From Prorocentrum cordatum (taxonomy: Eukaryota), in NCBI GenBank assembly GCA_963575745.1, contig CAUYUJ010000225.1, forward strand, positions 186,001 through 250,000: DNA of 64,000 nt. The letters are read 5' to 3'. Of the stretch, positions 44,601 to 47,600 are shown piece by piece. The translations under genes were made by a program, and so were the position numbers. Below the pieces are notes generated by a model, which had not been told where the DNA came from, ran no database searches, and saw only the letters and a list, made by a program, of their open reading frames with translations. How positions within the stretch are numbered: the first letter of the stretch is position 1; each line of letters begins with the position of its first letter.

Positions 44601-47600
44601 GAAACGTCAGCACGCGGCCTCTTGGCTCCTTCGGCAGCAGCGCGGGAGAAAGCGGCCGATTCTCTCCAGGGGTCGTGTTGATAGACTGCATCTGGTTGAC
44701 GATCACCTGCGCGCTGATGAGGTCCTTCGCTCGCGTCAGCACCAGAGGGTTGGAGAGAAGCAGCAAGACGATCAGCAGCAGCAGCTCCACGATGAGCCGC
44801 CATTCGCGGTGAGCGCTGAATGCCTGGGGCTGACCAGGACTTGGAATATGGATGCCAGGGGCGGACCTGGACTTCTGAATATGGGTGCCAGTGGCGGACC
44901 TGGACTTGGAGCCAATGCCAGGGGCGGACCTGGACTTGGAGACAGCTGGATCTCTGGGTGGGAGCCTACCCCGCGAAGGCAGATCTGGAGGGACCGCAAT
45001 TTGGCCTTCAGCCAAAACGGCTACGGATGTATATATATATATATATATATATAATGCTAGCCAGTGTGGGCACTGAAAATAATGTTTCTCGACATCTGAC
45101 TGGCGCAGTCGATATTGTGCTACTCGCCCCGCCGAGCTTGAAGTTGTCAACTCCACTGCTCGAGCAATCTTCCCATCCCCTGACTCCGGATCCGCCCTAC
45201 TTTGGGGAAATTCGTAAGTAGGGCTTGGAATTTCCGCCTTGCTTTTCAAGCCCCGCTGATGCCAATTTCCGCCCTACTTTTCTGTTGTTGTTTCCGCCCT
45301 ACTTCTGTGGAATTTCGCTATATTTTATGTTGGGTGCAGAAATTTCCGCCCTACTTGTTCGGTTTCTTATAGGTGGATTTCCGACGCAATCTTAAGTTGG
45401 AAAAAAAAACCAAAGTAGGGCGGATCTGGAGTCAAGGTCCACCCACCCGCAATTTGGCTTGCAAAACGCACGCGGCGGCGACTGCGATCACTGCCTGGCG
45501 CTGGCCGGAGCGGCCCTGCGGCCCCGCCGGCGCGCGGTCAGGCTCGCGCGTAGAACGGCCAGCTGGTTTGGCGCGGCCGGCGCGGCCGCGGTGGCGCTGA
45601 GAGCTGGGGACCCCCCAACGCGTCTCGCAGGTCGCGCTACTGGCCATCGCTCGGACGTCCATTTCCTGTGTTTTTTTCGGTTTCGTGCGTGGTTTTTTCG
45701 CCAAATGATCGAGGATGCTCCTCGATGGTCCTCGCCGAAGGAAAAATGCACACGTCCGAGCGATGCCAAGCCCAGCGCGTCTCGCAGGTCGCGCTACCTC
45801 GCGGGCACTTCAGCACGAGGCGGTGACTCGGGCGGGCACGGTATCACTGAAGGGCCCCAGGACACACAAATTCGCCGGCCCAACGGGCCAGGGCGTGCTA
45901 AGATCTCCGGTAACTGGTTAACAGTATTAACAGTATTTCTAGTTCGCGCGCGCGGGGCGGCCCCTGGGGGTCCCCCGGCGAAAAGTACCCCGAACCCCGA
46001 CCGCCGCCCGACCAAGTCTACTCAGAGATGGTTTTCCTTCTGGGTGCGGCCTCTCAGGCTCCCCAGAGCGCGCTCAGAGTGCCCCAAGAGGCCCCCAAGA
46101 CTGCCCAAGAGGCCCCCGAGACGCCCAAAGAGCGCTCGAAGACGCCGAAGATGACCCCAAGACGGCCCAAAAGGCCCCCAAGACAGCCCAAGAGGCCTCC
46201 AAGACGCCCCAAGAGCCTTCCAAGAGGCCTCCGAAGAGAGCCCCAAGAGGCCAAAATCGTTGATTTTCATTGTTTTTTTCTATGTTTTTTGTGTTCTGGC
46301 TTTTTCGGCTTCCGGACGCTCCAAGACGGCCCAAGAGGCCCCCAAGACCGCTCCAAGACGGCCCACGAGGCTCCCAAGACGGCCCCGGAACGGCCCAGGA
46401 GGGCCCCCAAGACGGCCCAAGTGCCGCCCAAGACGGACCAAGAGGCCCCAAGACGGGCCCAAGAGGGGCTCAAGAGGGGAACCGAGAACTGAAAAATCGA
46501 GCCCTCCGCCCCAGAAGGCGCCCAGGAGGCCCCAAAAAGGCCCCAAGAGGCCCCCAAGAGGCCCCCAAGACGCCCCAAGAGGCGCCCAAGAGGCCCAAAA
46601 GAGGCCCCAAGAGGCCCCAAAACAGCCCCCAAGAGGCCCCCAAACTCGGCTAGCCCACAACGGTGCGACAATATGGGCCGGCGGAATGAGCGAAGCGATT
46701 AAATAAATACACACAAATAAAAATATTCCCCATATTTTCACATATTTTCTGGGTTTCTGTCTTCCCCCCCACTTCCCATATTTTCCCATATTTTCTGAGG
46801 AAATCGACGATTAATTGTGTCTGTTTGTTTTTTCCTCTCCTGAATCATGGCGACGTCGACAACGGCAGACACGATGATGATTGCAGCGTTGCTGGTGACG
46901 ACGATGACGATGACGACGGCAAGGCCAATGGCAGCCCCGATGATGATCACGCCGATGACGATGATGGTGTCCGCGTGTCGGTGATGAAGTTTTTGGGAAG
47001 ATTTCGACATGCGCGCGCGGCCAACGGACGCGAGCGGTCCGAATGGTGTTGTTTGATGGGGATCGTGCCCCACCCCCCAGCACGCGCGCAATGATGTACG
47101 AATGAGTTCGACATGCGAGCGCGAGGGGCACGCTTGGTCGCATTGGATGAAAATGCTGAAACCTACGATTGTCTTAAGAATTCGCAAGAGCGCTCGCGCA
47201 GACCTTATTTGAACGATCATGTTGCAAAACCATGTGCTGTGTTCCTGTTTAATATGTTTTCGGACCACTCGGTTTTGAAATCCTTACAACACCTACGGAA
47301 TTTGAAGGATTTCTGCATGCGTGCGCGACGACGCGCGCGCGTCTGCACGTCGTCCCGTTGTTCGTGCAAGGGGTTACTGCAAACTGATGATTTAAGATGG
47401 GCAAGTGTGCGCCCATGGAGCGTTTTGTAGAGGATGGTGGGGGGTCGAATTTGGTCTGGCGGGGATGGGCAATCCCTCCCTTTCGTACGACCCGAGAGGG
47501 GGCGGAAGGAGGAGGAGGAGGCAGAGAGATAGAGCGTTCTGCGGCAACTCATTGCATGGGAGCCTCCCGAAACATCTTGCTGGCTCTTGCGAATCGGCGC

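What the first reader, a model, noticed from the sequence alone, without database searches (positions are those of the whole stretch)
44803..45053. LINE whose 5' terminus is a spliced leader: a trans-spliced retrotransposon RNA that was re-integrated
Seen: a 22-nt, 20/22 match to DinoSL sits exactly at the boundary between the LINE 5' UTR and the (TA)n flank, about 200 nt upstream of ORF1. Established: dinoflagellate mRNAs receive this SL in trans, and SL relics mark retroposed mRNAs. Inference: this LINE uses host SL trans-splicing to define and cap its 5' end. The integrated SL ends in AG, so it can act as an acceptor for the next round, letting the element be expressed from host read-through (it lies sense to the host gene) without its own promoter.
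Basis: partly seen in the sequence, partly recalled or inferred. Interest (0 to 1): 0.82.

Follow-up and report, generated by a model that had tools for sequence, protein, structure and literature searches.

The report
Dinoflagellate LINE headed by spliced leader
A worn-out jumping gene (an L1-like LINE) in a dinoflagellate genome begins with the 22-letter leader that these algae splice onto their messenger RNAs, so it was copied back into DNA from host-processed RNA; whether it needs that leader to keep jumping is not shown.

Summary
On the minus strand, 45027..45006 reads TCCGTAGCCGTTTTGGCTGAAG. That is 20 of 22 matches to DinoSL, the only such match in 64 kb, and 0 of 100 shuffles gave one. 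It heads a 5.15-kb element (39881-45027) that lies between (TA)12 and (AT)18.

The element is an L1-like LINE. ORF1p is a coiled coil plus RRM, and its best fold matches are human L1 ORF1p. ORF2 has an endonuclease and a reverse transcriptase but at least 3 frame breaks, so this copy is dead.

Independent support comes from environmental DNA. Four distant ORF1 relatives sit behind a perfect DinoSL. One database relative starts with the translated leader.

The best reading is a full-length cDNA of a trans-spliced LINE RNA, inserted into a microsatellite. I found no RNA run and no host gene.

This scan has noted the same signature at 8 other places in this genome. In my searches, no passage I read and no listed title or abstract start describes it.

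The parts
45030..45053 (.). (TA)12 microsatellite, 5' flank of the insertion (upstream on the minus strand)
   Evidence: Read. The same repeat type lies at the other end of the element.
45028..45029 (-). Two extra bases (CA on the minus strand) between (TA)n and the leader
   Evidence: The same (TA)n-CA-T-CCGTAG junction is seen in metagenome locus L007. Origin unknown: filler bases or a variant repeat unit.
45006..45027 (-). DNA copy of the dinoflagellate spliced leader, 20 of 22 (TCCGTAGCCGTTTTGGCTGAAG), first bases of the element
   Evidence: 1 match, 0 of 100 shuffles.. It is followed by GCCAAA, not by the GTA... intron seen in SL RNA genes.
44804..45005 (-). 202-nt 5' UTR. It contains 3.8 copies of a ~33-nt tandem repeat (44820-44940; 44812-44937). 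Its first 28 nt (45005..44978) share an 11-mer and a 13-mer with a block 453 bp upstream.
   Evidence: repeat; D7 (shared words).
43658..44803 (-). ORF1, 381 aa, intact. L1-type ORF1p: long coiled coil (helices 79-117 and 124-171) followed by an RRM-like domain and a C-terminal domain.
   Evidence: ORF. (AlphaFold2, mean pLDDT 80.5). (top 8 Foldseek hits are the human LINE-1 ORF1p trimer, E 1.3e-4 to 4.7e-3). (family of 1665 representative clusters at E<=1e-3). No Pfam family.
39922..43596 (-). ORF2, broken. The frame changes between 41722 and 41287, near 40690 and near 40500, which makes at least 3 frame breaks. Stop codon at 39924-39922.
   Evidence: tblastn of the relative P0001. table 4: other copies carry one more G after 40696 (4 of 4 X1 contigs) and after 41473 (1 contig).
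42898..43533 (-). Apurinic-type endonuclease domain of ORF2
   Evidence: Exo_endo_phos E 8.9e-4, 19.5 bits, below the 24.5 cutoff. Relatives at 68-71% identity carry PF03372 (P0004, P0007).
41102..42040 (-). Reverse transcriptase region of ORF2, split by a frame break. The 5' limit is placed by eye from motifs in the translation.
   Evidence: RVT_1 E 9.5e-4, 19.4 bits, below the 29.6 cutoff. PF00078 on relative P0003 (75% identity). Profile A2 matches the RT of human L1 ORF2p (8c8j, 8uw3; E 3e-3 to 5e-3).
39881..39921 (-). 41-nt 3' UTR ending in T5; no poly(A)
39845..39880 (.). (AT)18 microsatellite, 3' flank of the insertion
45447..45476 (-). Context, not part of the LINE: a leader-like tail GCGTTTTGCAAG followed by CCAAATTGCGG, inside an abundant repeat ('U')
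   Evidence: D7. High contig depth in 4 runs.
45176..45439 (.). Context, not part of the LINE: a ~260-bp MITE with 28-nt terminal inverted repeats (45178-45205 / 45410-45437), inserted in repeat U
   Evidence: I1, 93% complementary; contigs in runs X1, X2 and X3 join 45167/45169 to 45439, i.e. empty sites.

Best explanation
This is a dead, full-length copy of an L1-like LINE whose RNA had received the host's 22-nt spliced leader by trans-splicing before it was reverse-transcribed.

Proposed path:
1. A source copy was transcribed. How is unknown.
2. The SL RNA donated its capped leader to an AG acceptor at the start of the 5' UTR.
3. ORF1p and ORF2p were made from that message.
4. ORF2p nicked a (TA)n microsatellite and copied the RNA from its 3' end up to the very first base of the leader.
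5. The cDNA was joined in, leaving leader + 5' UTR + ORF1 + ORF2 between (TA)n and (AT)n.

Afterwards the copy decayed: 2 of 22 leader bases changed and ORF2 acquired at least 3 frame breaks.

Shown: the end product, the LINE identity, the flanks, and the same leader-first layout in distant relatives. Inferred: trans-splicing of the LINE RNA, the acceptor used, and target-primed reverse transcription at the microsatellite.
For: Leader match:
- 20 of 22, unique in the window, 0 of 100 shuffles.
- It is followed by GCCAAA, not by the GTA... intron that follows the leader in the 29 of 133 environmental sites classed as SL RNA genes.

The element is one inserted unit:
- (TA)12 lies before it and (AT)18 after it.

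LINE identity:
- The ORF1p model's top 8 fold matches are the human L1 ORF1p trimer.
- APE and RT are supported weakly in this copy. They are supported by Pfam on relatives of 61-76% identity and by a profile match to L1 ORF2p.

Independent relatives:
- Of 104 environmental DinoSL sites that are not SL RNA genes, 4 (L008, L020, L037, L059) are followed by a member of this ORF1 family 120-290 nt downstream (distances read by eye). Evidence: tblastn; phmmer and jackhmmer; a profile built from other sequences, E 7e-52 to 3e-92.
- All four have DNA upstream of the leader, so none is merely a transcript end.
- 1 of the 150 best representatives of the family (P0123) begins MH-SVAILAQ, the leader translated in frame.

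Microsatellite context is general:
- 11 of 104 such sites lie within 4 nt of a microsatellite, against 16 of 3387 random positions in the same contigs (binomial p = 4e-12).
- L007 has the same (TA)n-CA-T-CCGTAG junction.

Decay is consistent:
- Listed contigs of other family copies differ from this one by about 7-19% (table 8). The leader differs from the canonical sequence by 9%.
Against: - No other copy of this exact family could be examined at its 5' end. No genome is held, and the laid contigs were cut at 45017-45061 as a repeat.
- No RNA evidence could be obtained.
- The first 28 nt behind the leader share an exact 11-mer and a 13-mer, in the same order and strand, with the junction of an abundant repeat and a MITE 453 bp upstream. 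The head may therefore be captured host or repeat sequence rather than native LINE 5' UTR, or the LINE may abut an older leader-headed fragment.
- The 3' end is T5 plus (AT)n, not the poly(A) expected of an ordinary dinoflagellate mRNA.
- APE and RT in this copy are both below Pfam's curated cutoffs.
- The perfect leader in the four relatives was the search criterion, so their leader quality carries no weight.
Confidence: 0.72

Rival explanations
1. Self-renewing, promoter-less cycle. The DNA-encoded leader's terminal AG serves as trans-splice acceptor in each generation. Any read-through transcript then releases a capped LINE RNA with an exact 5' end, and the element needs no promoter.
For: - The leader ends in AG and no relict is stacked behind it. 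By eye, 6 of 15 bases match the relict, which is the background level.
- L037, P0123 and several microsatellite-flanked sites also have leader and no relict.
- Some relatives combine a perfect leader with one decayed relict: L008 at 13 of 15, and L020 and L059 by eye only. This fits an outer leader that is renewed.
Against: - No RNA data.
- No host gene found.
- 10 of 13 clear relicts start at CC, i.e. the internal AG was the acceptor.
- The 5' UTR has a 33-nt tandem repeat that could be an internal promoter, as monomers are in mouse L1 (the mouse L1 comparison rests on the table in PMC5814959).
- A published proposal holds that the TTT(T/G) inside leader relicts acts as a promoter motif (PMC5585692, passages).
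- The perfect leader in relatives was the search criterion.
Confidence: 0.25
2. 5' transduction. The source LINE lay downstream of a U/MITE-type repeat and was co-transcribed with it. It was trans-spliced at the AG in ...GTTTTGCAAG|CCAAATTGCGG. The leader is then joined to captured repeat sequence rather than to the native 5' UTR.
For: - The exact 11-mer CCAAATTGCGG occurs only twice in the window, both on the minus strand and 453 bp apart.
- Each copy is followed within 3-15 nt by CTCCAGATCYGCC.
- In the upstream copy an AG directly precedes the 11-mer.
Against: - The gapped local alignment of the whole head against the upstream block is only z about 2.7 against shuffles; the maximum shuffle score exceeded the real score.
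- The 13-mer in the upstream block belongs to a MITE end that many copies of U lack (joints), so the two words are not a fixed unit of U.
- The LINE has an extra G before the 11-mer.
- No second LINE copy could be compared.
Confidence: 0.15
3. A 5'-truncated LINE landed beside, or inside, an older leader-headed retrocopy fragment, so the leader does not belong to the LINE.
For: - The head resembles the neighbouring repeat.
- Leader-headed retrocopies next to microsatellites are common.
Against: - Nothing that could be the rest of such a fragment lies between the LINE 3' UTR and (AT)n.
- The 202-nt distance from leader to ORF1 ATG is in the range of the four leader-headed relatives, 120-290 nt by eye.
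- ORF1 is complete.
Confidence: 0.07
4. The leader comes from the SL RNA or its gene and not from trans-splicing. Either the insertion went into an SL RNA gene (as SLACS, CZAR or NeSL do), or the reverse transcriptase switched template onto free SL RNA.
For: Only the presence of the leader.
Against: - A complete 22-nt leader with no intron sequence behind it or after the LINE 3' end (against the gta... introns).
- The flanks are (TA)n.
- Rfam finds no RNA gene in the window.
- SLACS and CZAR insert between nt 11 and 12 of the mini-exon (PMC5814959, passages).
Confidence: 0.02
5. Chance resemblance.
For: None.
Against: 0 of 100 shuffles gave a match with 3 or fewer mismatches. The position is exactly at an element end, and relatives show the same layout.
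Confidence: 0.005

Closest known systems
DinoSL-tagged retrogenes ('recycling of processed cDNAs'). Slamovits and Keeling 2008 is recalled and not held. The concept is described in passages of PMC6050394, PMC5585692 and PMC12014239.
   Same: A DNA-encoded spliced leader at the 5' end marks a sequence that was copied back from a mature, trans-spliced RNA.
   Different: Here the retro-copied RNA is the retrotransposon itself, which encodes the presumed copying machinery. There is no poly(A) tail and no supported relict. The papers I read in passages treat the source of reverse transcriptase as unknown (PMC5585692) or favour Ty1/copia (PMC6050394).
Human and mouse LINE-1
   Same: Two ORFs. ORF1p has a coiled coil, an RRM and a C-terminal domain. 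ORF2 has an APE endonuclease and an RT. The 5' UTR has tandem repeats as in mouse L1 (the mouse L1 feature is taken from the table in PMC5814959).
   Different: The 5' end is a host spliced leader. The 3' end is T5 plus (AT)n rather than poly(A). The insertion is in a microsatellite. Sequence identity to L1 proteins is very low (10-14%).
L1Tc / ingi of trypanosomatids (PMC5814959 passages; PMC1874656 abstract)
   Same: A LINE in an organism whose mRNAs are trans-spliced, which must obtain a defined 5' end from co-transcripts.
   Different: L1Tc uses an internal promoter (Pr77) and an HDV-like ribozyme, and its transcripts lack the spliced leader. The element here carries the leader.
SLACS / CZAR (trypanosomes) and NeSL-1 (nematodes; recalled)
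   Same: A LINE physically associated with spliced-leader sequence.
   Different: Those elements insert into SL RNA genes at a fixed site: between nt 11 and 12 of the mini-exon for SLACS and CZAR (PMC5814959). Here the whole leader is part of the element, and the target is (TA)n.
Microsatellite-targeting LINEs of animals (recalled, no call)
   Same: The same simple repeat lies on both sides of the element.
   Different: Target specificity of this family is shown for one copy only. Its relatives sit next to other repeats: (GT)n for L059 and a 20-nt satellite for L037.

Membership tests
DinoSL-tagged retrocopy | DNA-encoded DinoSL at the 5' end of the copied unit | tested here: met
   20 of 22, unique in the window, 0 of 100 shuffles. 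It lies inside the microsatellite flanks.
DinoSL-tagged retrocopy | Leader joined to exon sequence, not to the SL RNA intron | tested here: met
   Followed by GCCAAATT. SL RNA genes continue gtacaag... or gtaaacc...
DinoSL-tagged retrocopy | Truncated relict leader(s) behind the leader (seen in part of the retrogenes) | tested here: not met
   G+CCAAATTGCGGTCCC matches the relict at 6 of 15 positions (by eye). That is the background level among non-relict sites.
DinoSL-tagged retrocopy | Poly(A) remnant at the 3' end | tested here: not met
   The 3' end is T5 followed by (AT)18.
L1-like APE-type LINE | ORF1p with coiled coil, RRM and C-terminal domain | tested here: met
   Model with mean pLDDT 80.5. 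Top 8 Foldseek hits are the human L1 ORF1p trimer, followed by RRM domains. TM-scores are low (0.20-0.38) because of the long coiled coil.
L1-like APE-type LINE | APE endonuclease in ORF2 | tested here: met
   Below cutoff in this copy (19.5 against 24.5 bits). PF03372 is on record for relatives P0004 and P0007.
L1-like APE-type LINE | Reverse transcriptase in ORF2 | tested here: met
   Below cutoff in this copy (19.4 against 29.6 bits). PF00078 on P0003. Profile match to the L1 ORF2p RT, E 3e-3.
L1-like APE-type LINE | Target-site duplication | tested here: inconclusive
   Both flanks are (TA)n, so a duplication cannot be delimited.
L1-like APE-type LINE | Poly(A) tail | tested here: not met
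L1-like APE-type LINE | Internal promoter in the 5' UTR | not testable with these tools
   Only the 33-nt tandem repeat is seen.
SL-gene-specific LINEs (SLACS/CZAR/NeSL) | Insertion at a fixed site inside an SL RNA gene | tested here: not met
   The flanks are (TA)n. The full leader is present, there is no intron on either side, and Rfam finds no RNA gene.
Microsatellite-specific LINE | Same simple repeat on both sides in independent copies | tested here: inconclusive
   Met for this copy. Leader-headed sites in general are enriched next to microsatellites: 11 of 104 against 16 of 3387.

The most novel reading that the evidence does not exclude
L1-like LINEs of dinoflagellates may have handed 5'-end formation to the host. 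The DNA copy of the leader would carry the acceptor for the next trans-splicing, so any read-through transcript yields a capped, exact-ended LINE mRNA without an element promoter. The same microsatellite-targeting machinery would also be the long-sought engine that copies leader-capped host mRNAs back into the genome.
Probability: 0.25. Interest if true: 0.8.

Novelty: new variant of a known kind. Interest (0 to 1): 0.55.

Why it matters
Dinoflagellate genomes hold thousands of retrogenes tagged by relict spliced leaders. The papers I read in passages say the reverse transcriptase behind them is unknown (PMC5585692) or guess at Ty1/copia (PMC6050394).

An L1-like LINE carries the same leader tag at its own 5' end and sits in a microsatellite. 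Leader-headed retrocopies in general are about 22-fold enriched next to microsatellites. Together these point to LINE-type target-primed reverse transcription as the engine.

The finding also offers a contrast with trypanosomatid LINEs, which avoid the leader and use a ribozyme instead.

This locus is a decayed copy and gives only static evidence. Its value is as one more dated example, and as a case with a puzzling head sequence.

Tried and rejected
- **Source genome:** no whole genome is held.
- **Window:** self-BLAST found no second LINE copy.
- **Sequencing runs:** no RNA holder was listed; 4 runs held small shares, DNA or of unrecorded kind. Laying their contigs showed family copies, but the junction 45017-45061 was skipped as a repeat, so other copies' 5' ends stayed unseen.
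- **Related loci:** ORF1 as a single protein in metagenome contigs found no relative. ORF2 profile A2 found none in viral contigs or genome contigs. ORF1 alignment A3 was too divergent for that tool.
- **RNA genes:** Rfam found nothing at gathering scores and one chance-level hit at E 0.4. No tRNA.
- **Host gene:** Pfam on 149 window ORFs gave only sub-threshold or low-complexity hits.
- **Environmental leader sites:** Pfam on 129 ORFs behind them found no RT or APE; the contigs are too short.
- **PDB:** single sequences gave no hit.
- **L007 and L070 ORFs:** not related to the ORF1 family by hhalign, probability below 1%. L007's identical (TA)n-CA-T junction therefore cannot be tied to this family.
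- **3' ends:** hairpins of the LINE and of repeat U are not better than shuffles, z -0.8 and -0.7.
- **Head against upstream block:** local alignment z about 2.7.
- **Earlier notes by sequence:** nothing.
- **Literature:** searches were seen as listings with abstract starts. Passages were read in PMC3229502, PMC3942190, PMC12014239, PMC8045281, PMC7245778, PMC11453091, PMC6050394, PMC7789003, PMC10666404, PMC10235124 and PMC5585692. None states that LINE copies begin with DinoSL. Subscription papers and supplements were not seen.
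Full report
**Observation**

The stretch was read. On the minus strand, 45027..45006 is TCCGTAGCCGTTTTGGCTGAAG, 20 of 22 against the dinoflagellate spliced leader. A pattern search allowing 3 mismatches found this one site in 64 kb and none in 100 shuffles. An ungapped scan found nothing else with 16 or more of 22. (TA)12 (45030-45053) lies 2 nt upstream, and the ORF1 ATG (44803) lies 202 nt downstream. The leader ends in AG.

**Anatomy of the element**

The element runs from 45027 to 39881, which is 5,147 bp.

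- Its 3' UTR ends in T5 and is followed by (AT)18. The same microsatellite therefore flanks both ends, and no target duplication can be delimited.
- ORF1 (44803..43658, 381 aa) is intact and has no Pfam family.
- A profile of ORF1 with four environmental relatives hit 1,665 representative clusters at E<=1e-3 and 1,006 at E<=1e-10 in a library of 1.84 billion proteins.
- A model built on 48 family members (mean pLDDT 80.5) has a long coiled coil followed by alpha/beta domains.
- Its 8 best Foldseek matches are chains of the human LINE-1 ORF1p trimer (E 1.3e-4 to 4.7e-3), followed by RRM domains.
- ORF2 gives only sub-threshold Pfam matches to Exo_endo_phos and RVT_1 in this copy.
- Relatives of 61-76% identity, named by NCBI as unnamed products of Prorocentrum cordatum, carry PF03372 and PF00078.
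- A profile of those relatives matches the RT of human L1 ORF2p at E 3e-3.
- Mapping relative P0001 onto the DNA shows ORF2 in four frame segments, so there are at least 3 frame breaks.
- Contigs of other copies carry an extra G after 40696 (4 of 4 X1 contigs) and after 41473 (1 contig).

The copy is dead.

**Whether the leader belongs to the LINE**

- It lies inside the microsatellite flanks.
- It is joined to GCCAAA, not to the GTA... intron that follows the leader in SL RNA genes.
- Rfam finds no RNA gene.

I could not reach other copies of this family. No genome is held, the window has no second copy, and the contigs laid from four public runs were cut at the junction as a repeat. Those contigs do show a family with many copies in run X1. 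Of 1041 laid contigs, 93 are at 99% or more, 126 at 95-99%, 335 at 90-95% and 487 below 90%. Depth is lower over the 5' UTR: 11.9 and 9.1, against 17.5-66 in the 24 body bins. This is as expected if many copies are 5'-truncated.

**An independent test on environmental DNA**

- Of 133 leader sites with at least 19 nt upstream, 29 look like SL RNA genes and 104 do not.
- Behind 4 of the 104 (L008, L020, L037, L059) lies a member of this ORF1 family. Evidence: tblastn E 9e-12 to 4e-5 for three of them; all four by jackhmmer; all four by a profile built mostly from other sequences, E 7e-52 to 3e-92.
- All four have DNA upstream of the leader: (GT)n for L059, a 20-nt palindromic satellite for L037, and TG/TA-rich sequence for L008.
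- One of the 150 best family representatives, P0123, starts MH-SVAILAQ, the leader read in frame.
- 11 of the 104 sites lie within 4 nt of a microsatellite, against 16 of 3,387 random positions in the same contigs (p = 4e-12).
- L007 shows the same (TA)n-CA-T-CCGTAG junction as the window. Its ORF is not related to this ORF1 family.

No RT or APE was found behind any site, because the contigs end too soon.

**Reading**

The simplest account is that the LINE RNA was trans-spliced like a host message, then copied in full and inserted by target-primed reverse transcription at a (TA)n nick.

- Insertion into an SL RNA gene and a template switch onto SL RNA are both disfavoured, because there is no intron sequence and the flanks are (TA)n.
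- Chance is excluded.
- The two leader mismatches (9%) fit the decay of the copy. Listed contigs of other copies differ from it by about 7-19% (table 8).

**What is not shown**

That model comprises re-use of the terminal AG, expression by host read-through, and sense orientation to a host gene.

- No RNA run was listed.
- Pfam on 149 window ORFs found no credible gene.
- Among 13 environmental sites with a clear relict (11 or more of 15) behind a full leader, 10 relicts start at CC, 1 at G+CC and 2 at AG+C. The AG inside the leader is therefore the usual acceptor for a further round.
- The window copy has no supported relict: 6 of 15 by eye, which is background.
- Elements with a leader but no relict (this one, L037, P0123) fit either a first-generation copy or re-splicing at the terminal AG. 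The data cannot tell these apart.
- A 33-nt tandem repeat in the 5' UTR could provide an internal promoter. So could the published idea that TTT(T/G) in leader relicts acts as a promoter motif (PMC5585692).

**An unexplained detail**

The first 28 nt behind the leader are GCCAAATTGCGG-TCC-CTCCAGATCTGCC. They share an exact 11-mer and a 13-mer, in the same order and strand, with a block 453 bp upstream.

- The 11-mer has only two exact copies in the window.
- In the upstream block the 11-mer belongs to a very abundant repeat, with contig depth in the hundreds to thousands in four runs. It is preceded there by GCGTTTTGCAAG.
- The 13-mer belongs to the end of a ~260-bp MITE with 28-nt inverted repeats. 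Other copies of the repeat lack that MITE (joints).
- A gapped local alignment alone is weak, z about 2.7.

This could mean a captured leader region (5' transduction with trans-splicing at that AG), shared ancestry of the heads, or a local event. I could not resolve it.

**Comparison with known systems**

- Leader-tagged retrogenes are well known, but the papers I read in passages leave the RT source open.
- Trypanosomatid L1Tc makes transcripts without the leader, using a promoter and ribozyme in its first 77 nt. SLACS and CZAR insert into the SL gene between nt 11 and 12 (PMC5814959).
- Five full-text searches (listings and abstract starts) and passages of eleven papers gave no statement that LINE copies begin with DinoSL. 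Subscription papers and supplements were not seen.
- Earlier notes of this scan report the same signature at 8 other places in this genome. I did not examine those loci.

**Verdict**

This is a real, ordinary-looking dead copy of an L1-like LINE that carries the host leader as its first 22 bases. It is a new variant of the known leader-tagged retrocopy, and it is relevant to the question of what drives retroposition in dinoflagellates. The self-renewing, promoter-less cycle remains a hypothesis.

Noticed in passing
Loci from L127 on (119 IMG/VR loci); also AT-rich metagenome loci such as L002, L003, L017, L018, L043, L047, L061-L063: The exact DinoSL is DNA-encoded at 134 distinct sites on contigs mostly labelled as giant-virus MAGs. 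Of these, 107 of 134 have a TGAWAW motif (AAAATTGA-like, which I recall as the mimivirus early-promoter motif) 30-55 nt upstream. An A precedes CCGTAG in 127 of 133. The first ATG lies a median of 49 nt after the leader. ORFs behind such sites include DUF4116 repeats and a PolX. It looks as if giant viruses of dinoflagellates write the host leader in front of their genes. The listing of one literature search showed no paper on this.
   Followed up: partly
window 45176-45439: A ~260-bp MITE with 28-nt terminal inverted repeats and internal TTTCCGCCCTACTT sub-repeats. It is very abundant in four public runs, and empty sites are seen in the contigs of three of them.
   Followed up: partly
window 45055-45175 and 45440-45600: Abundant repeat 'U' into which the MITE is inserted. 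On the minus strand it ends directly at the (TA)12 that precedes the LINE, so the microsatellite could be U's own tail. U contains a leader-like GCGTTTTGCAAG.
   Followed up: partly
window 44978-45005 and 45419-45457: An 11-mer and a 13-mer are shared, in the same order and strand, between the LINE head and the U/MITE junction 453 bp upstream. Unexplained.
   Followed up: partly
L006, L037, L044: Three environmental leader sites lie directly behind the same tandem palindromic satellite, AAAAGGACCCCGGGGTCCTT. One of them (L037) carries an ORF1 relative. This is a possible satellite-specific subfamily.
   Followed up: no
P0010: A 275-aa protein 87% identical to this ORF1 is filed in EukProt under a Pyramimonas sp. 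label. It may be a contaminant from a dinoflagellate. If that data set is a transcriptome, it would hint that the family is expressed.
   Followed up: no
P0001: A 1840-aa public gene model fuses unrelated N- and C-terminal parts with ORF1 and ORF2 of a LINE of this family. It reads part of the LINE 5' region in the wrong frame, which is an annotation artefact.
   Followed up: partly
window 46061-46643: Long arrays of 11/21/32-nt GC-rich tandem repeats (GGCCCCCAAGA-like) lie upstream of the LINE locus.
   Followed up: no
window 41395-45249, minus strand: One reading frame stays open for 1284 codons across ORF2's first part, all of ORF1 (in another frame), the 5' UTR, the leader and (TA)n. This is probably a by-product of 61% G+C.
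   Followed up: no
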